A stretch of DNA of 41,126 nucleotides, from IMG/VR virus record IMGVR_UViG_2706794694_000014; one strand, given 5' to 3'. Shown piece after piece: positions 1,575 through 38,588 of this stretch (the first letter of the stretch is position 1; each line of letters starts with the position of its first letter). This DNA is from a virus (taxonomy: Duplodnaviria > Heunggongvirae > Uroviricota > Caudoviricetes). Under the pieces are notes generated by a model. The model saw only the letters and a list, made by a program, of their open reading frames with translations. It was not told where the DNA came from and searched no databases. A program made the position numbers and the translations under genes.

Positions 1575-4286
1575 CATACCTACTGAGCCTTGTACACCCC
1601 AGGTATTTTGACCTGAGCTTGTATAACCATATTGATAAGTATCTTTAAAAACACTGGGGTTAAATCGACGGCCATCTCTATGGCTGTGATTACCAGCTGC
1701 ATTCGTGCTGCCACTTAAACTATGGGTATGCGCACCAGTGTTATTCGTGGATTTAGTGCCGTAATCAAACGACGATGTGGTTTTCGTCCCCAAATCCGTA
1801 CTGGATGCGCTGGCGCTGTGGGTATGCGATTTAATGCCGTCCTGTTCCTGAGACAATACGGCCCGACCACTGGCAGGTTTGCCCTTAATCGTCCAGCCAC
1901 GCATATCAGGGATCACGCCTGACGGATAAGCCGCTGCAAGTTTCGGGTATGCAGATTTGTCAAAAGCCTGCCCCTGCATCAGGGCATAGCCAGACGGAAC
2001 GGTATCTGATGGCCACGGGATTGGTGCGCCAGGCGGATAAAACTGCTCTGATGGCGTATAGAGTGAATAAACTGTACCGTCCGTTAACCCTTCCGGCTTA
2101 TTAGCAGAATATGCTGGTGACGTATGAATCGTCACGCTGGCATTACTGGTATAATCCCATTGAATATTTACACCAGTCGCATAATTTCCGATTGCAACGT
2201 AAATATCGTAAGTATCACCAGATGTATTAACCCAGGCAAAATTTGTAAACCCTGTCAATGTGCGCTGCCATAAAGCACCAGTAATCCCCTTCGGATTACC
2301 ATTACCTGCACGTAAAACAAGTTCAGATATACCTGCCTGTTGAGGTGACCCCACGTTAAATCCAGCGCCACCAATCAACGTAATTGAAACAACAGAACTC
2401 GCCTGTGGCATGGTTACCGTTGCTAATTTGAACCAACCAGCACCACCGCTGAATGACATTGTTGTTGAGTTAAGCGTACCAATATCTTTCGGCGTCAGTG
2501 TTATATCCGCTGAAAGCGCCTTACCATTCACCTTACGGGCAGAAGGTACCCGACCATTCGCATTGTCATTAGCTGCTTTCACTGCTTTCGGTGTCGCAGC
2601 AAGCGTTTCAGATGTGCTGTTGGTTGCACTACTGAGCTGGACAATTCCTTTTTGTGCTGTCGTAGCGTCCTGTGCGGTGTATTTCCCGTTAGCCAGGTCA
2701 TACGCGGCCTTAACGGCTTTTGGCGTTGCCGCCTGTGACTCGGAAGTGCTGTTAGTCGCACTGCTGAGCTGAACTATCCCTTTCTGTGCTGTCGTTGCAT
2801 CCTGTGCGGTGTATTTCCCGTTAGCCAGGTCATACGCGGCCTTAACGGCTTTTNNNNNNNNNNNNNNNNNNNNNNNNNNNNNNNNNNNNNNNNNNNNNNN
2901 NNNNNNNNNNNNNNNNNNNNNNNNNNNNNNNNNNNNNNNNNNNNNNNNNNNNNNNNNNNNNNNNNNNNNNNNNNNNNNNNNNNNNNNNNNNNNNNNNNNN
3001 NNNNNNNNNNNNNNNNNNNNNNNNNNNNNNNNNNNNNNNNNNNNNNNNNNNNNNNNNNNNNNNNNNNNNNNTGACGCCTGTCTGGTCGCCTCATCTTTTG
3101 AAGCAGACGCAGATGATGCCGATGACGCCGCCGAACTGGCGGACGATGCGGCAGCCGTTTTTGAGGATTCTGCGCTGGTTTCCGACGCTTTCGCGTTCGT
3201 TTCGGATGTCTTCGCTGCGGAAGCAGACCTCGCTGCTGCGCTGGCCTGTTCAGTGGCTTCGCCAGCCTTCGTTGTGGCTGTTGAAGCGGATGATGCGGCG
3301 CTTTCTGCCGATTTTCCGGCGGCGGTGGCACTGACTGCTGCCTCCTCTGCCTTAATGGACGCCTCACGGGCCGATGATGCAGCTGCTGTCTCAGAGTCTG
3401 CCGCAGCTGAGGCGCTCTGTTCCGCTGCCGTTTCAGAAGACTTAGCATTCGTCTCGGACGTTTTTGCCGCCTTCACGGAATTTCCTGCCGCCGTTGCCGA
3501 GGAGGCTGCACTGCTGGCGCTTGTGGAGGCGTTCGTTTCTGATGATTTTGCCGCCTCTTTGGAGGCCGCCGCATCTCTGGCTGAAGTGGCGGCTTCTGAC
3601 GCTTTCGTTGTCGCAGTGGATGCAGAAGTGGCTGCTGATTTTTGTGACGCTGCAGCATTCGTTTCTGACGTTTTCGCCGCACCGGCACTGGTGGCCGCCG
3701 CGCTTTTTGAGGACTCTGCAGCGGCAGCACTTTTTGATGCTTCAGTGGCCTTTGTTGATGCCGTTCCTGCGCTGGAAGACGCCTCCTGAGCCGAAGTCGC
3801 GGCCTGTCCGGCTGACGTGCTGGCTGCACGCGCTGAGCCTGCAGCATCAGTCGCATGGGTTGCCGCCTCACGGGCAGATGTGCCGGCATCACTGGCTGAC
3901 TTCTTCGCGGCTGCCGTGTTCTGTGCCACCGCGGACGCGTTACGCGCCACCTCTTCCACCATCAGTTCAAAACGGCGCAGAGCCTCCGGACGGGCATCAT
4001 CCTCCGTCATGGCACCGAGAAAATCATTCAGCGTACCGGGTCGGGAATCTTCATACACAGTGATGGTCCCGGCATGTGACGGCGGGAATCCTTCCACCAA
4101 CAGAATAACGCTGTACTGACCGTACTCAACGTCCATGCTGTAACGCCCGGCTTCATCCGGATTTTCTGAGGCCAGCGTGTTCACCACCACCGTGGTGCTG
4201 TTACGTTTTGCTTTCAGCTGGATTGTGCAGTTCTGTACCGGTTTTCCTGTGCCGTCTTTCAGTACACCTGAAATCTTTACTGCCAT
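1575..4286 (-). CDS. stf: Side tail fibre protein (lambda Stf homologue); C-terminus lost in gap, internal gap 2854-3071
   Basis: N-terminus [62 protein letters not shown] is near-identical to lambda Stf; long Ala/Ser/Thr-rich shaft; ATG at 4286 preceded by GGGGTG (track start 4292 is a GTG two codons upstream). Confidence 0.85.
2590..2853. repeat. Intragenic tandem repeat in stf (unit ~132 bp, at least 2 copies, continuing into gap)
   Basis: gtatttcccgttagccaggtcatacgcggccttaacggctttt occurs at ~2681-2723 and ~2811-2853; encoded peptide [41 protein letters not shown] repeated. Confidence 0.8.
2854..3071. other. N-run (218 nt) inside stf, adjacent to 132-bp tandem repeats
   Basis: Run of n characters immediately after a repeated 132-bp unit. 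Confidence 0.99.
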
Positions 4287-34030: not shown

Positions 34031-34263
34031 GCTGCACCTCCGAGATGCTTCATGTTTTTTCCGGAGCGAAAGGCTATAAGCGGCATACTGACGCGGTAAT
34101 TACGGCCCAGCGGTTCACAAATCACCTTCTGGCATTCACGGTCAACCAGGCTAACACGTAGAACATGCCCTGCAGGCGTGGTGTACCACTGCCCAACTGT
34201 AGGAATTGATATTTTTTTACGCTGAAGCAAACGGCAAATATTGAGGATCAACGGATTAAGCAT
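34027..34263 (-). CDS. Hypothetical protein
   Basis: 78-aa ORF coupled by overlap to both neighbours. Confidence 0.4.
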   Translation of the reverse strand: MLNPLILNICRLLQRKKISIPTVGQWYTTPAGHVLRVSLVDRECQKVICEPLGRNYRVSMPLIAFRSGKNMKHLGGAA

Positions 34264-35092
34264 GACGATGCCCTCCGCTGATATTCAGGAGACGGTGAAT
34301 ATGAAAATTAGCCTTATCCGCCAGACGAATACGTTCAGCTTGCAAGTTAAGAAGGGTTTCTACCAGAACCTGATGTGCCTGCGGATCCGAAAGAGTTACC
34401 TTGCGCAGAGCACGTAGTGCAGTTGTTACATAACTGAGTTTATGTAAGTCTTCATCATTCAGACGAGTGAGGGCTGGGACAGTAGCCATGATGGCAGCCT
34501 CCTTGATCGGTGAAATACTTCCACCACCGGAAACGCCAATTTCGCTGGTGGTGAACTGAACGGGGTTGGCGTAACCGGTGATCAAGGAAACCGGCGCATC
34601 TTTCGATGCCCCCGCCCAGCCCACCATAACTTTGATGTGAGCAAATGCGGACGATAAAAAAGACGCTGGCGCGTCATATATCGCCTTGATCAATTCCAGG
34701 ACGCCAATCCCGGCACCCGCTTTATAAGGTGCCTGAACAGTGTAACGTCCCGGAATGGCAGAATCAATGTGCTGGTGGTCCTTCACACTCAACAAAATCA
34801 CGCCTGAATTTCCACAAAGGACTAAAGCACTCATGCGGGTAGTCTTTGCGAAGATAGATAACGCGCTGTGTTTCTGGCTCCCAACGAATAACATGAACAT
34901 AAAGTCCTCTTCCGTCACGAAACCAGCGGTTAAGTTCCTGCACAACTCGCCCCCCACAGTCAGGTAAAGTTCTCTGTGGTTACTTACAGCCAGGTGATTT
35001 GGTAATCTGCATTCATGCCGTAACAACAGGTGTTCAGCGACGCTGACCACCAGCTGTTGCGACAAACGGTTATTTGCCGTTAAACTGTTCAT
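34256..35092 (-). CDS. Hypothetical protein (replication-region, unrecognised)
   Basis: 278-aa ORF translationally coupled to neighbours; no motif recognised. Confidence 0.5.
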   Translation of the reverse strand: MNSLTANNRLSQQLVVSVAEHLLLRHECRLPNHLAVSNHRELYLTVGGELCRNLTAGFVTEEDFMFMLFVGSQKHSALSIFAKTTRMSALVLCGNSGVILLSVKDHQHIDSAIPGRYTVQAPYKAGAGIGVLELIKAIYDAPASFLSSAFAHIKVMVGWAGASKDAPVSLITGYANPVQFTTSEIGVSGGGSISPIKEAAIMATVPALTRLNDEDLHKLSYVTTALRALRKVTLSDPQAHQVLVETLLNLQAERIRLADKANFHIHRLLNISGGHRHA

Positions 35093-35652
35093 GCGTTAGT
35101 TTCTCCACAGACACAAAACGCCACGACGCCCGGAGCTGCACACTCGCGGGCGTCACTCTTTTCTGGAGCGCAAAAGATTTTGTAGACCAGTGCTGCATGC
35201 TCCTGGAGCTTCGAAATTGACAGATACAACTCATCATTAATTGCTGTCTGCTCGTGTGGCTCCACTACCCCATCTTCGATTGCCGAACGAATCTGCTTTG
35301 AGTAACTCCCGATCTGTTCGATGACTTCCAGCAGGCGCTGGTTTATATCGGCGTTCTCTACTTCCTCAATTTCAGGAAGCGATACAAACACCCCACCAGC
35401 AGACTGTGCGACAGCATCCGCAATGTAGTGAGTGCCAGCCGCGCGCTGTAAAATCATTGCCCATCCCAGCGGGAAAATCTGATCGCCATCTGCACGAAGG
35501 CGGTTGAATAAAGCGTTCTCTGTTACATCCAGCCACTCAGCAGCTTCAGCGTAACCCCCCGGCAACGCCGCGATAGTTTTTCTGACAGCTTTCACGTACC
35601 ACTCAGGCTGTTTTTCTACTTTCCAGTGATGCTTACCCACGGTTAGCCTCAT
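35089..35652 (-). CDS. Putative phage regulatory protein (CII/CP76-like)
   Basis: 187-aa ORF immediately downstream of the cro-like gene; family assignment from memory. Confidence 0.4.
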   Translation of the reverse strand: MRLTVGKHHWKVEKQPEWYVKAVRKTIAALPGGYAEAAEWLDVTENALFNRLRADGDQIFPLGWAMILQRAAGTHYIADAVAQSAGGVFVSLPEIEEVENADINQRLLEVIEQIGSYSKQIRSAIEDGVVEPHEQTAINDELYLSISKLQEHAALVYKIFCAPEKSDARECAAPGVVAFCVCGETNA

Positions 35653-35683
35653 CGTTCTGTGGTTAAAAATTGAAGGTGTTCTG

Positions 35684-35884
35684 TTAATCTTTCGGATAGA
35701 TATCCGGTCTTAAGTCAGATTTCGTAATTGCACCTGACGTGCATTGCTCAAGTTTTTTAGCCAGCACAAAACTGGCTTTTTTATAACCATTGAAAACCAG
35801 CCGTAAGTAGCCTGGTGTTGAGCCAACTTTTCCGGCCAACTCACCCTGCTGTTCTTTGGTTAAAGAGTCCCAATACGCTTTCAT
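35684..35884 (-). CDS. Cro-like HTH repressor
   Basis: 66 aa, MKAYWDSLTKEQQGELAGKVGSTPGYLRLVFNGYKKASFVLAKKLEQCTSGAI; divergent from cI; GGAGG RBS. The longer track ORF 35684..36187 is an upstream extension. Confidence 0.8.
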   Translation of the reverse strand: MKAYWDSLTKEQQGELAGKVGSTPGYLRLVFNGYKKASFVLAKKLEQCTSGAITKSDLRPDIYPKD

Positions 35885-35974
35885 ACAATATGTACCTCCG
35901 GTATACATATTACATGATTGAGATGAACCTTCAAGATACTTGTACCTTATCGGTACAAAGGTTTTAATTTCTTT
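35885..35974. promoter_or_regulatory. Immunity-region operator/promoter (OR-like) with palindromic operator candidates and divergent promoters
   Basis: tgtacctccggtataca (~35891-35907) and ttgtacc-ttatc-ggtacaa (~35940-35958); candidate rightward promoter on minus strand (-35 TTGAAG, -10 TAATAT). Confidence 0.6.
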
Positions 35975-36649
35975 ATGAAAACAGTCCATGACATCCGGCG
36001 GTCTAACGCCAGAAAACTGAGAGATGGTGTTGGCGGGAATTCTTCCTTTGCCACCATGATTGATCGCGAGCCAACCCAGACCAGCAGGTTTATGGGAGAT
36101 GGTGCAACTAAAAATATCGGTGACAGCATGGCACGGCACATCGAAAAATGTTTCGACCTGCCTGTCGGATGGCTTGATCAAGAACACCAGACAACGAACA
36201 TCACAAAAAAACCTGACGTTTCAATCACTAACAAACAAATAACGTTAGTCCCTGTCATATCATGGGTACAGGCCGGAGCATGGAAAGAAGTTGGCTATTC
36301 TGAGGTTGATTTGAGCACAGCAGAAACTTATCCCTGCCCTGTACCCTGTGGCGAAATGACTTATATCTTGCGGGTGATTGGTGATTCAATGATTGATGAG
36401 TACCGCCCGGGAGACATGATTTTTGTTGATCCTGAAGTCCCTGCCTGCCACGGTGACGACGTTATTGCATTGATGCACGATACAGGCGAAACCACCTTCA
36501 AGCGGTTGATAGAAGATGGAACACAGCGTTATCTCAAAGCATTAAACCCAAACTGGCCTGAGCCTTACATTAAGATTAACGGTAATTGCTCTATAATTGG
36601 TACAGTGATTTTCTCAGGAAAACCAAGAAGATACATAATAAAGGCCTAA
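35975..36649 (+). CDS. CI-like prophage repressor (HTH + LexA-like S24 autopeptidase domain)
   Basis: C-terminal VISWVQAGAWKEV...LRVIGDSMIDEYRPGDMIFVDPE...FKRLIEDG...LKALNPNWPEPYIKINGNCSIIGTV closely parallels P22 C2 / lambda CI. Confidence 0.9.
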   Translation: MKTVHDIRRSNARKLRDGVGGNSSFATMIDREPTQTSRFMGDGATKNIGDSMARHIEKCFDLPVGWLDQEHQTTNITKKPDVSITNKQITLVPVISWVQAGAWKEVGYSEVDLSTAETYPCPVPCGEMTYILRVIGDSMIDEYRPGDMIFVDPEVPACHGDDVIALMHDTGETTFKRLIEDGTQRYLKALNPNWPEPYIKINGNCSIIGTVIFSGKPRRYIIKA

Positions 36650-36660
36650 TCAATATTTAT

Positions 36661-36684
36661 AACCTGCTTCGGCAGGTTTTTTTA
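36661..36684 (+). terminator. Rho-independent terminator after cI
   Basis: cctgc-ttcg-gcagg followed by ttttttt. Confidence 0.75.
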
Positions 36685-36687
36685 TAC

Positions 36688-36716
36688 TTGACAATGTACC
36701 TTTGGGATACATAATG
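36688..36716 (+). promoter_or_regulatory. PL-like early-left promoter with embedded operator
   Basis: -35 TTGACA, 16-17 nt spacer, -10 CATAAT; spacer contains tgtacctttgggataca, matching the OR operator motif. Confidence 0.6.
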
Positions 36717-37152
36717 TATCTAAAAGAAACACAGCACAGGCAAGATTAAACAAAATTTGGTTGTAACACGGCGTATGGCACATGCGTCGTTAGCGGTCTG
36801 GGGACGTTAAAGGGGACAATCCACTCCTTGCTCGGGCAAACAAACCAGGTAGCCGGAATGTGCAAGTCAATGATGATGCTGATAAGACGCCTAACCAGCG
36901 TGGCGATTCGGTTTGACGCCTGGGAAGAGACCAGGGTGCAACGATGAGGACATTTATGGAACCGCGACAAAGTGTGGTGCCGTAACTGGCTAAGTGCTCT
37001 CAGCGTTGTGGTGAATGCGCAGGCTGATGCGCGAAAGACATTGCAGCTAATGCGGAAAAGAGCTGTTCGGCGGGGCAATTAAACGCCCGTGAGAGTCTGA
37101 AATAACCGCAAGCCGGAGATCAGCACCGGTCACCACAACAGCCACTGCTTTG

Positions 37153-37198
37153 GCGGTACCAGTTTGTACACTTGCTTCCGGCTGGTACCGCTCTTTTT
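37153..37198 (+). terminator. Terminator-like hairpin in the early-left leader (tL-like)
   Basis: 10-bp perfect inverted repeat gcggtaccag ... ctggtaccgc with 19-nt loop, followed by tcttttt. Confidence 0.5.
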
Positions 37199-37201
37199 AC
37201 A

Positions 37202-37284
37202 AAACAGAGAAGAGCATCACCGGACGACGGGCTCATAACCAAATCCATCCGGGCGGCTGCCACCGCAGGTGTTCTTCTCTGTTT
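37202..37284 (+). ncRNA. Structured leader RNA element (12-bp perfect inverted repeat enclosing ~59 nt) upstream of the first early-left gene
   Basis: aaacagagaaga (37202-37213) pairs with tcttctctgttt (37273-37284); no ORF longer than ~30 codons with an ATG start in the 600-nt leader. Confidence 0.35.
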
Positions 37285-37335
37285 TGTGGAGAAACCAACC
37301 GACCTTGCAGGGTCGATATGATTAGGAGCAGCAAA

Positions 37336-37698
37336 ATGGCTAGCGAACGCAGTACTGATGTGCAGGCATTTATTGGGGAGCTGGACGGCGGCGTATTTGA
37401 AACCAAAATCGGCGCAGTTCTCAGTGAAGTCGCTTCCGGTGTGATGAACACGAAAACCAAAGGTAAGGTCTCACTCAACCTGGAAATCGAACCATTTGAT
37501 GAGAACCGTGTGAAAATCAAACACAAACTCTCATATGTTCGCCCGACTAACCGCGGGAAAATTTCCGAAGAAGACACCACCGAAACGCCGATGTATGTCA
37601 ATCGCGGTGGTCGCCTGACTATTCTGCAGGAAGACCAGGGACAATTACTGACTCTTGCCGGTGAACCTGACGGAAAACTCCGCGCAGCAGGTCATTAA
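37336..37698 (+). CDS. Hypothetical early protein (YfdP-like)
   Basis: 121 aa from MASERSTDVQAFIGELDGG with AGGAG RBS; the track ORF 37150..37698 is an upstream extension. Confidence 0.6.
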   Translation: MASERSTDVQAFIGELDGGVFETKIGAVLSEVASGVMNTKTKGKVSLNLEIEPFDENRVKIKHKLSYVRPTNRGKISEEDTTETPMYVNRGGRLTILQEDQGQLLTLAGEPDGKLRAAGH

Positions 37699-37763
37699 TA
37701 TCGTTCTTAATTAACCGATTATTTATCTCATCACTGAATATCTTTATATAGTGAGGACTTATT

Positions 37764-38588
37764 ATGTCTCAGAACTTAGACGCAACCGCAATTAATCAAA
37801 TCCATGCCCTTATTTCTGCTCAGGGTGTTAATGAAATTATCAGTAAGATTGGTGCCGATGCTGTGGCATTGCCTGAGAATTTCCGCATTCATGATCTGGA
37901 AAAATTAAATTTAAATCGTTTCCGTTTCCGTGGTGCGCTTTCCACTGCCAGCATCGATGACTTTACTCGTTATTCTAAAGATCTTGCAGATGAAGGCACC
38001 CGCTGCTTTATCGATGCTGATAATATGCGTGCCGTCAGTGTTCTTAACCTGGGTACTATTGATGAACCAGGTCACGCAGATAACACCGCCACTCTCAAAC
38101 TGAAAAAGACAGCTCCGTTCTCTGCTCTGTTGTCTGTTAATGGCGAGCGTAACTCCCAGAAGTCACTGGCAGAATGGATTGAAGACTGGGCCGACTACCT
38201 TGTGGGCTTTGATGCTAATGGTGACGCCATTCAGGCAACCAAAGCGGCTGCGGCGATCCGTAAAATCACAATTGAAGCGAACCAGACCGCTGATTTTGAA
38301 GATAATGACTTCAGCGGCAAACGCTCCCTGATGGAGTCTGTCGAAGCGAAGACCAAAGACATTATGCCAGTGGCATTTGAATTTAAATGCGTTCCGTTTG
38401 AAGGTCTGAAAGAACGTCCGTTTAAATTACGCCTCAGCATTATCACTGGCGATCGTCCTGTACTGGTTCTGCGCATTATTCAGCTGGAAGCGGTACAGGA
38501 AGAAATGGCTAACGAATTTCGTGATCTGCTTGTTGAGAAATTCAAAGACAGCAAAGTAGAAACCTTTATTGGTACTTTCACCGCCTGA
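37764..38588 (+). CDS. DUF2303-like protein (YfdQ-like)
   Basis: 274 aa, [21 protein letters not shown]...; GAGGA RBS; family from memory. Confidence 0.6.

What the first reader, a model, noticed from the sequence alone, without database searches (positions are those of the whole stretch)
35885..36716. Shared operator motif TGTACC-N3-GG(T/G)ATACA at OR and inside the PL-like promoter spacer
tgtacctccggtataca (OR, overlapping the cro-side promoter) and tgtacctttgggataca (inside the spacer of the PL-like promoter) are 15/17 identical. A third palindrome, ttgtacc-ttatc-ggtacaa, lies nearer the cI start. This is consistent with repressor and Cro binding sites controlling both early promoters of this immunity type.
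Basis: seen in the sequence. Interest (0 to 1): 0.45.

Follow-up and report, generated by a model that had tools for sequence, protein, structure and literature searches.

The report
Repressor operators of e14/SfV-type prophage
The repeated motif is real and is best read as five 17-bp repressor-binding sites (half-site TGTACC) guarding the early promoters of an e14/SfV-type prophage: a well-conserved but ordinary lambda-style genetic switch.

Summary
The two 15/17-identical sites and the "third palindrome" are one class: 17 bp, TGTA-N9-TACA (ideal TGTACC-N5-GGTACA). That pattern occurs exactly three times in 41 kb, all at these sites (expected 0.24).

In 16 prophages from other genera (CI 73-88% identical) and 105 viral contigs, the sites keep the same offsets from the cI start. 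Their arms are invariant and their central 5 bp vary freely. Two weaker conserved sites complete the set: three at OR (35891, 35924, 35941) and two at PL (36695, 36715).

The half-site tracks the CI N-terminal domain. Homologues that keep the helix REPTQxSR keep it (Pseudomonas, Salinicola, Salinivibrio, Morganella). Homologues with another helix, including H-19B, do not.

CI differs at 2 of 224 residues from E. coli K-12 e14 YmfK, and Cro is identical to YmfT/CroE. The module is in 1324 of 5426 complete E. coli genomes. SfV's GenBank record already marks OR as a "putative operator region".

Binding by CI, and especially by Cro, is inferred and was not measured. This is a lambda-type switch of a known kind, so interest is low to moderate.

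The parts
35684..35884 (-). cro-like gene (66 aa), identical to E. coli K-12 e14 YmfT/CroE
   Evidence: ORF. Weak YdaS-family/HTH_3 Pfam hits, below the curated cut-off. 66/66 identical to YmfT. Weak match to PDB 'antirepressor protein Cro' 8co2/8c7k, E 0.01.
35891..35907 (.). OR1: TGTACCTCCGGTATACA, at about -7 to +10 of the inferred PR. Its complement carries cro's GGAGG Shine-Dalgarno.
   Evidence: Found at offset -84/-85 from the cI ATG in all 16 divergent loci. Arms score 2.0 bits over 91 haplotypes.
35907..35934 (-). Inferred PR (cro promoter): -10 TAATAT (complement of 35907-12), 16-nt spacer, -35 TTGAAG (complement of 35929-34)
   Evidence: Read from the sequence. The -10 is conserved as TAATAT or CATAAT and the TTG of the -35 is kept in the alignment of 18 loci. 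The match is below the promoter scanner's threshold, so this is an inference.
35924..35940 (.). OR2: weak site TGAACCTTCAAGATACT covering the PR -35, centred about 43 bp upstream of the cI ATG
   Evidence: Recurs at offset -51/-52 in 14 of the 16 divergent loci and in E. coli L003, with 2-3 mismatches. TGAACC and the right-hand arm are mostly conserved over 91 haplotypes. The outgroups Pseudomonas CF67a and Salinicola have TGTACCGTCAAGGTTCT at the same place.
35941..35957 (.). OR3: TGTACCTTATCGGTACA, the best palindrome, overlapping the inferred PRM -35 and spacer
   Evidence: Found at offset -34/-35 in 15 of the 16 divergent loci as an exact TGTA-N9-TACA, and with one mismatch in the sixteenth, L020. 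Its centre varies.
35940..35968 (+). Inferred PRM: -35 TTGTAC (35940-45), 17-nt spacer, -10 TTTAAT (35963-68), ending 6 nt before the cI ATG, which implies a leaderless cI mRNA
   Evidence: A conserved 'TnTAAT' block and a variable 6 nt with no conserved SD before the ATG. The inference follows lambda PRM and CP-933P paaR2, which is leaderless (PMC8630535).
35975..36649 (+). cI-like repressor (224 aa): N-terminal HTH (recognition helix about 33-40, TQTSRFMG), Ala100-Gly101, S24 peptidase domain with Ser138/Lys176. It is 222/224 identical to K-12 YmfK.
   Evidence: Pfam S24 E 1.5e-26. The C-terminal domain matches the lambda CI C-terminal domain 1f39, E 1.8e-9. N-terminal model pLDDT 86.9, best fold match 5d50 Rep, then XRE/434/P22/lambda HTH folds. 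Identity figures.
36661..36686 (+). Intrinsic terminator after cI
   Evidence: Annotated as a terminator in Ayreon and SfV.
36688..36715 (+). PL-like promoter TTGACA-16-CATAAT
   Evidence: 11/12 consensus match. Invariant in 18 loci. Annotated as a promoter in phage Ayreon.
36695..36711 (.). OL1: TGTACCTTTGGGATACA in the PL spacer, overlapping the -10 by 2 nt
   Evidence: Found at offset about +720 in the divergent loci.
36715..36731 (.). OL2: weak site TGTATCTAAAAGAAACA at about -7 to +10 of PL, the same geometry as OR1 at PR
   Evidence: Recurs at +740/+741 in 11 of the 16 divergent loci, in E. coli L003 and in the window. The left half TGTACC is conserved and the right half is degenerate. 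It is an exact TGTA-N9-TACA in L015 and L019.

Best explanation
These are the operators of a lambda-style CI/Cro switch of the e14/SfV immunity type.

Inferred mechanism: dimers of the CI-like repressor (K-12 YmfK type) bind 17-bp dyads with ideal form TGTACC-N5-GGTACA. Binding is through an N-terminal helix-turn-helix whose recognition helix is about residues 33-40 (TQTSRFMG).

At PL, OL1 fills the -35/-10 spacer and OL2 covers -7 to +10. At PR, OR1 covers -7 to +10 plus the cro ribosome-binding site, and OR2 covers the -35. Occupied sites would therefore exclude RNA polymerase from both early promoters.

OR3 overlaps the -35 and spacer of the inferred cI maintenance promoter PRM, which would make a leaderless cI mRNA. 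OR3 would give negative autoregulation by CI and/or shut-off of cI by Cro. OR2 is centred about 43 bp upstream of that start, close to where lambda OR2 sits (recalled as about -42), so activation of PRM is possible.

Derepression would follow RecA-stimulated self-cleavage at Ala100-Gly101 by the Ser138/Lys176 S24 domain.

What is shown: existence of the sites, their restriction to the immunity region, their conservation, their position relative to conserved promoter hexamers, and their co-variation with the CI N-terminal domain.

What is inferred: actual binding, order of occupancy, Cro sharing the sites, PRM activation, and the leaderless start.
For: (1) Specificity. TGTA-N9-TACA occurs 3 times in 41 kb, only at these sites. 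In 1.16 Mb of related viral contigs it occurs at the homologous positions plus 13 other places, which is no more than the about 18 expected from length for equal base frequencies.

(2) Footprint. In 16 loci from other genera (CI 73-88% identical) exact matches fall only at -84/-85, -34/-35, about +720 and, in two loci, +741 relative to the cI ATG; one locus (L020) lacks the exact -34 match and carries it with one mismatch. Over 91 distinct haplotypes the arms score about 2.0 bits and the central 5 bp 0.3-1.0 bits. The centres differ even between phages whose CI is 99% identical.

(3) Extra weak sites recur at -51 and +741.

(4) Promoter overlap. PL (TTGACA-16-CATAAT) is invariant. PR and PRM elements are conserved.

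(5) Linkage. All 105 viral contigs that carry the PL/OL1 pattern and have enough upstream sequence hold a CI homologue directly upstream, and nearly all show the OR sites about 805 and 755 bp upstream.

(6) Co-variation:
- Pseudomonas phage CF67a (CI N-terminal domain 58% identical, C-terminal domain diverged) has sites at -85, -50 and -34.
- Salinicola has sites at -87, -53 and -37 plus a PL-like TTGACG-A-TGTACC... promoter. Salinivibrio has clear sites at -86 and -36 and a downstream site without an evident -35. Morganella has sites at -78 and -28 plus a PL-like TTGACG-A-TGTACC... promoter.
- Homologues with a different recognition helix (L152, L153, H-19B CI) lack the sites, and H-19B shows TTTATCA-type repeats instead.

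(7) Protein. S24 domain, Ala-Gly site and Ser/Lys dyad. The N-terminal domain folds as an XRE/lambda-type HTH.

(8) Prior annotation. SfV's 'putative operator region' spans exactly OR1 to OR3. The related CP-933P switch has experimentally shown shared CI-like/Cro-like operators at OR and PL (PMC8630535).
Against: No binding, footprinting or reporter data for this immunity type were found. The key papers were not held: SfV 2002, Roberts 2007 and Mehta 2004.

OR1's left arm and centre are confounded with cro's ribosome-binding site.

OL1's arms were partly fixed by the search pattern used for the viral contigs. They were not fixed in the protein-seeded genome loci.

The PR and PRM hexamers are weak matches (4/6 + 4/6 and 3/6 + 5/6), and no transcription start is mapped.

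OR2 and OR3 abut at 17 bp centre to centre, about 1.6 helical turns. This differs from lambda's cooperative spacing as recalled, so lambda's occupancy logic may not transfer.

Cro co-occurs with CI in most relatives, so co-variation cannot separate the two proteins. One Morganella locus keeps weaker sites without a cro ORF.
Confidence: 0.85

Rival explanations
1. The sites are CI operators only. Cro (YmfT/CroE) recognises a different or only partly overlapping sequence in the intergenic region, as in switches where the lytic and lysogenic regulators have separate sites.
For: CI and Cro have different HTH subfamilies. A Morganella locus keeps CI and weaker sites without any cro ORF. Nothing here tests Cro binding.
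Against: All strongly conserved intergenic blocks are explained by the five sites and the promoter hexamers, so no separate conserved motif is left over. Cro homologues with a conserved (G/A/S)YLR segment co-occur with the TGTACC sites in Pseudomonas, Salinicola and Salinivibrio. In CP-933P the YdaS-type Cro and the CI-like PaaR2 footprints overlap (PMC8630535).
Confidence: 0.25
2. The palindromes act as nucleic-acid hairpins, not protein sites. For example, 35940-35958 would be an intrinsic terminator, or the sites would form mRNA 5' structures.
For: The scanner lists 35940-35958 as terminator-like, with a 7-bp stem followed by AGGTTTTAAT.
Against: The arms are invariant, with no compensatory changes, while the loops vary. 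The T-run after 35958 is not conserved. OR1, OR2, OL1 and OL2 are imperfect dyads that would make poor hairpins. OL1 lies upstream of the PL start and is therefore not transcribed from PL.
Confidence: 0.03
3. The similarity is due to chance or to promoter sequence, or the sites belong to a host factor such as LexA.
For: Many short imperfect repeats exist in the region. The sites overlap promoter elements. TGTA...TACA loosely recalls the LexA box CTGT-N8-ACAG (form given from general knowledge).
Against: 0 of 100 shuffles reach 3 matches. Position and arms are conserved across orders while spacers and flanks change. OL1 sits in a promoter spacer, where sequence is normally free. The base before TGTA is A or T, not C, and the spacing is N9, so the LexA box is not met. 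The motif follows the phage CI helix, not the host.
Confidence: 0.02

Closest known systems
Phage lambda OR/OL operators with CI and Cro
   Same: A repressor with an HTH N-terminal domain and an S24 self-cleaving C-terminal domain homologous to the lambda CI C-terminal domain. Divergent cI and cro genes. 17-bp partly symmetric operators repeated at OR (three) and at a PL downstream of cI on the same strand. Sites overlap PR, PRM and PL. One site is centred about 43 bp upstream of the inferred leaderless cI start, close to lambda OR2 (recalled as about -42).
   Different: Different half-site (TGTACC, versus TATCAC recalled for lambda). Two OL sites rather than three. Spacings of 33 and 17 bp at OR and 20 bp at OL, versus 23-24 bp recalled for lambda. 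OR1 lies at +1 and on the cro ribosome-binding site rather than in the promoter core. OL is only about 0.8 kb from OR. Cro is of the YdaS type, not a lambda Cro fold. No N gene is evident, and PL is followed by a long untranslated leader.
SfV and E. coli K-12 e14 immunity region (cI/YmfK-CohE, cro/YmfT-CroE)
   Same: It is the same module. CI is 222/224 identical to YmfK and Cro is identical to YmfT. DNA identity to SfV, cdtI, Ayreon, 2H10 and Stx2c phages is 97.6-98.6%, and 94.4% to SfIV. K-12 e14 and SfV carry the same five sites. SfV's GenBank 'putative operator region' coincides with OR1 to OR3.
   Different: Only the central bases of the sites and the first ~430 nt of the PL leader differ. 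I found no record of the explicit motif, the OL sites or any binding experiment.
CP-933P PaaR2 / YdaS / YdaT switch (E. coli O157:H7)
   Same: A CI-like regulator and a YdaS-type Cro footprint on overlapping repeats in the divergent intergenic region and at a PL-like promoter. The repressor gene is leaderless (PMC8630535).
   Different: Different repeats (18-bp palindromes, consensus GTTTAGTAA). Four inverted repeats at OR and three operators at OL. The window's Cro matches that Cro only weakly (E 0.01). The gene after cro here is a CII/CP76-family protein rather than YdaT.
Rep repressor of a Salmonella temperate phage (PDB 5d50; SPC32H, named from memory)
   Same: Closest solved structure to the CI N-terminal domain: TM 0.80-0.82, 33% identity, sequence E 0.0026.
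   Different: The match covers only Rep's N-terminal part. From memory, Rep is inactivated by an antirepressor rather than by self-cleavage. Its operators could not be compared because the paper is not held.

Membership tests
Lambda-type CI/Cro operator switch | Repressor with an N-terminal HTH DNA-binding domain | tested here: met
   AlphaFold model of residues 1-77, pLDDT 86.9, with helices 22-28 and 33-40. Foldseek matches to 5d50 Rep, 434 repressor, P22 c2 and the lambda cI N-terminal domain. No Pfam HTH model hits it.
Lambda-type CI/Cro operator switch | C-terminal LexA/S24 self-cleaving domain with an Ala-Gly site and a Ser/Lys dyad | tested here: met
   PF00717 E 1.5e-26. Lambda CI C-terminal domain 1f39 E 1.8e-9. 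A100-G101, S138 and K176 are present, with S138 and K176 nearly invariant. Cleavage itself was not tested.
Lambda-type CI/Cro operator switch | Divergently transcribed cI and cro with several dyad operators between them that overlap both promoters | tested here: met
   Three 17-bp sites lie in the 90-bp intergenic region, overlapping the inferred PR and PRM. The promoters are consensus inferences only.
Lambda-type CI/Cro operator switch | The same operator type at a second early promoter (PL/OL) | tested here: met
   OL1 and OL2 flank the -10 of TTGACA-16-CATAAT, and the arrangement is invariant across 18 loci.
Lambda-type CI/Cro operator switch | CI and Cro bind the same operators with opposite order of affinity, and CI binds cooperatively | not testable with these tools
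   Needs EMSA or footprinting. Only analogy is available (PMC8630535).
e14 / SfV immunity type | Repressor and Cro essentially identical to YmfK and YmfT | tested here: met
   222/224 and 66/66 identical. RefSeq names the genes ymfK and ymfT in matching E. coli genomes.
e14 / SfV immunity type | Same operator and promoter sequences as e14 and SfV | tested here: met
   The five sites are at the same positions in K-12 e14 and SfV, differing only in central bases.
CP-933P PaaR2/YdaS/YdaT switch | YdaS-family Cro and YdaT-family CII equivalent | tested here: inconclusive
   Cro hits PF15943 at 25.1 bits, below the 30-bit cut-off. The downstream gene is PF06892 (CII/CP76), not YdaT.
LexA box (host SOS operator) | CTGT-N8-ACAG (form given from general knowledge) | tested here: not met
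   The sites are TGTA-N9-TACA, preceded by A or T and not C.

The most novel reading that the evidence does not exclude
The 3 + 2 layout, with a conserved, deliberately weak OR2 that abuts OR3 (16-17 bp centre to centre, roughly opposite helical faces) and is kept from Pseudomonas to E. coli phages, might reflect a non-lambda binding mode. One possibility is a higher-order CI assembly bridging OR2/OR3 and OL1/OL2 across the short 0.8-kb cI gene. This would echo the tetrameric Rep that is the closest structural relative of the N-terminal domain (its oligomeric state is recalled from memory, not verified here).

At minimum, the work supplies the still-undefined binding motif of the E. coli K-12 y-gene regulators YmfK/CohE and YmfT/CroE.
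Probability: 0.15. Interest if true: 0.45.

Novelty: new member of a known kind. Interest (0 to 1): 0.25.

Why it matters
It gives a concrete, testable operator definition (TGTACC-N5-GGTACA, five sites) for an immunity type found in about a quarter of complete E. coli genomes. That type includes the K-12 e14 element, Shigella serotype-converting phages SfV and SfIV, the cdtI phage and Stx2c phages.

The definition helps to:
- predict homoimmunity between such prophages;
- annotate the K-12 regulators YmfK and CroE;
- design reporters for SOS induction of toxin-carrying prophages.

Conceptually it adds nothing beyond the lambda paradigm.

Tried and rejected
**Literature**
- No paper in the held library contains any of the three site sequences.
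- These papers are not held: the SfV genome paper, Roberts et al. 2007, Mehta et al. 2004, the Stx2c phage 2851 paper and the Rep-Ant structure paper.

**Searches that gave little**
- Rfam scan of 35000-38000 gave only a chance miRNA hit.
- A protein search with the CI N-terminal domain alone returned only fragments. The full-length search was used instead.

**Readings considered and rejected**
- The terminator reading of 35940-35958, because the arms are invariant and the T-run is not conserved.
- The LexA-box reading, on sequence.
- The other near-matches in the window (28668, 923, and the 2-3-mismatch hits). They are isolated and were not compared in relatives, and the count is near its chance expectation.

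Full report
**1. Observation**

The quoted sequences are present:
- TGTACCTCCGGTATACA at 35891-35907;
- TGTACCTTTGGGATACA at 36695-36711, 15/17 identical to the first;
- TTGTACCTTATCGGTACAA at 35940-35958.

The second lies inside a near-consensus promoter, TTGACA (36688-93), 16 nt, CATAAT (36710-15). This promoter directly follows the cI terminator.

A 15/17 repeat is not striking in itself, because the 1.8-kb region holds dozens of similar short repeats. However, all three sites share one 17-bp form, TGTA-N9-TACA. That pattern occurs exactly three times in the 41,126-bp window, only at these sites. The expectation is 0.24, and 0 of 100 shuffles reached three.

**2. Context**

| Feature | Coordinates | Evidence |
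|---|---|---|
| CI-like repressor, 224 aa, with S24 peptidase domain | 35975-36649 (+) | |
| Cro-like HTH protein, 66 aa | 35684-35884 (-) | |
| CII/CP76-family gene | 35089-35652 (-) | |
| Ash-family gene, then a replication gene | further along the minus strand | |

The region is 97.6-98.6% identical to SfV, cdtI, Ayreon, 2H10 and Stx2c phages, and 94.4% identical to SfIV. It occurs in 1324 of 5426 complete E. coli genomes, where the genes are named ymfK and ymfT.

These are the e14 prophage genes of K-12. The window's CI is 222/224 identical to YmfK, and its Cro is identical to YmfT/CroE. PMC8249747 lists YmfK as the SOS-sensitive repressor of e14.

SfV's GenBank record marks a 'putative operator region' that runs from one base before the first site to one base after the third. 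Phage Ayreon's record annotates the promoter after cI.

**3. Phylogenetic footprint**

A protein-seeded scan of one genome per species returned 16 loci from other genera with CI 73-88% identical. The genera include Atlantibacter, Leclercia, Klebsiella, Pantoea, Rahnella and Edwardsiella.

- In these loci exact TGTA-N9-TACA matches fall only at homologous places: -84/-85 and about +720 from the cI ATG in all 16, -34/-35 in 15 (the sixteenth, L020, has it with one mismatch), and a fourth at +741 in two loci.
- A mismatch scan with TGTACC-N5-GGTACA revealed two further recurrent, weaker sites:
  - -51: TGAACC-N5-GGTACT, window 35924-35940;
  - +741: left half TGTACC, window 36715-36731.
- Alignments show invariant arms, variable centres and conserved promoter hexamers.
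- A pattern scan of viral contigs with the PL/OL1 block gave 120 loci. All 105 with enough upstream DNA carry a CI homologue (74-100% identical) directly upstream, and in nearly all the two strong OR sites lie about 805 and 755 bp upstream of OL1.
- In the full 1.16 Mb of those contigs only 13 other matches occur. About 18 would be expected from length for equal base frequencies.
- Over 91 distinct OR+OL haplotypes the arms carry about 2.0 bits and the central five positions 0.3-1.0 bits.
- The centres differ even among phages whose CI is 99% identical.

**4. Link to the repressor**

The N-terminal 77 residues have no Pfam hit, but they model confidently (pLDDT 86.9) as a helical HTH domain. 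The HTH helices are 22-28 and 33-40 (TQTSRFMG). The best structural match is the Rep repressor of a Salmonella temperate phage (5d50, TM 0.80-0.82). Generic XRE, 434, P22 c2 and lambda cI N-terminal domains follow.

Homologues that keep the segment REPTQxSR keep the operator type and layout:

| Homologue | Similarity to the window CI | Sites, offset from cI ATG |
|---|---|---|
| Pseudomonas phage vB_Pae_CF67a | N-terminal domain 58% identical, C-terminal domain diverged, Cro 33% identical | -85, -50, -34 |
| Salinicola | 51% identical | -87, -53, -37, plus a PL-like TTGACG-A-TGTACC... promoter |
| Salinivibrio | 42% identical | -86, -36, plus a downstream site without an evident -35 |
| Morganella | 43% identical | -78, -28, plus a PL-like TTGACG-A-TGTACC... 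promoter |

Homologues with a different helix have no such sites. These are two metagenomic or genomic proteins with SSYLSQVR and the H-19B CI with PSQLTQVS. H-19B's OR shows TTTATCA-type repeats instead. The half-site therefore follows the CI DNA-binding domain.

Cro homologues (33-46% identical) co-occur in three of the four positive outgroups. The Morganella locus has no cro ORF. Co-variation therefore cannot cleanly separate CI from Cro.

**5. Inferred architecture and mechanism**

- **PL.** OL1 (36695-36711) fills the spacer and overlaps the -10 by 2 nt. OL2 (36715-36731) begins at the last T of the -10 and covers about -7 to +10.
- **PR, read on the minus strand.** -35 TTGAAG (35934-35929), 16 nt, -10 TAATAT (35912-35907).
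  - OR1 (35907-35891) begins at the last T of the -10. This is the same geometry as OL2 at PL, and the site contains cro's GGAGG.
  - OR2 (35940-35924) covers the -35.
- **PRM, inferred.** TTGTAC (35940-45), 17 nt, TTTAAT (35963-68), ending 6 nt before the ATG. No conserved SD follows, which implies a leaderless cI mRNA, as in lambda and in CP-933P paaR2 (PMC8630535).
  - OR3 (35941-57) overlaps its -35 and spacer.
  - OR2 is centred about 43 bp upstream of that start.

CI occupancy should therefore silence PR and PL. It may activate PRM through OR2 and repress it through OR3. Cro would, by analogy, use the same sites.

CI carries Ala100-Gly101, Ser138 and Lys176, which is consistent with SOS-triggered self-cleavage. 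All binding steps are inferences.

**6. Rivals**

- *Hairpin or terminator function.* Unlikely. The arms are invariant without compensatory change, the T-run is not conserved, and the other sites are imperfect dyads.
- *Chance, promoter-only conservation or a LexA box.* Excluded.
- *CI-only sites with Cro binding elsewhere.* Still open. No leftover conserved motif exists in the intergenic region.

**7. Comparison and verdict**

This is a lambda-type switch and a member of the e14/SfV immunity type. The OR region was already flagged as a putative operator in SfV.

What this analysis adds is the single 17-bp register, the explicit half-site, the two weak sites, the OL pair, and evidence that the module is conserved from Pseudomonas and Halomonadaceae to Enterobacterales.

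The closest experimentally dissected analogue is the CP-933P PaaR2/YdaS switch, which uses different repeats.

The finding is sound but ordinary.

Noticed in passing
window 36732-37335: PL is followed by about 600 nt with no convincing ORF before the first gene (ATG at 37336). Only the last ~190 nt (37150-37340) are conserved in many related loci. The first ~430 nt are shared only with phage Ayreon, at 88.6% identity. There is no Rfam match. Roberts et al. 2007 (cited in PMC3475682) reported non-coding-RNA, transcription-termination-mediated immunity in SfV. Whether it maps here could not be checked.
   Followed up: partly
window 37152-37292: A 13-bp GC-rich hairpin (GGCGGUACCAGCC...) is followed by CUCUUUUUA, which looks like an intrinsic terminator about 470 nt downstream of PL. 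Immediately after it comes a roughly 100-nt long hairpin (37194-37292). The 161-nt segment folds at -71.3 kcal/mol, z = -7.07. The two could gate read-through into the early-left genes.
   Followed up: partly
L003, L002 (SfV) 3228-3290, L147 (K-12 e14), and most loci L006-L020, just after OL2: Most relatives start the PL transcript with a conserved block, ACAGCGAACAGGCAGGACGCCCACGAAGTAGCCGCC..GG.GCATATGAA..CCGG. The window lacks this block. It may be a structured leader RNA.
   Followed up: no
OR1, OR3 and OL1 centres in L027-L146, compared with the window: The central 5 bp of the operators differ among phages whose CI is 99-100% identical. For example, OL1 reads CTTGAGA, TTTGAGA, CATGAGA or CACAAGA. 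These positions are either unconstrained or tune affinity.
   Followed up: partly
L149 2240-2962 (Salinicola); L150 2164-3234 (Salinivibrio): In these distant relatives the PL/OL-like site lies about 1.8 kb from the cI start, with extra genes in between. In Salinicola the extra gene is a zeta-toxin family gene. This position resembles that of rexAB in lambda.
   Followed up: no
L148 2327-2341 and 2373-2387 (Pseudomonas phage vB_Pae_CF67a): Two copies of TCTGTATATACA(G/A)AG, containing the 10-bp palindrome TGTATATACA, lie just downstream of the repressor gene. They differ from the 17-bp operator. Their function is unknown.
   Followed up: no
L151 (Morganella) 1204-1500: A CI homologue with weaker TGTACC-type sites sits next to a Toprim primase-like gene and an antiterminator-family gene, with no cro ORF. 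This may be a satellite or a degraded element that retains the immunity repressor.
   Followed up: no
window 35089-35652 (-) and 34256-35092 (-): The gene after cro is a CII/CP76-family protein (PF06892) closely similar to K-12 YmfL. It is followed by an Ash-family protein rather than e14's cell-division inhibitor YmfM. The SfIV paper stated that no CII-like factor is present in this phage group (PMC3851460).
   Followed up: partly
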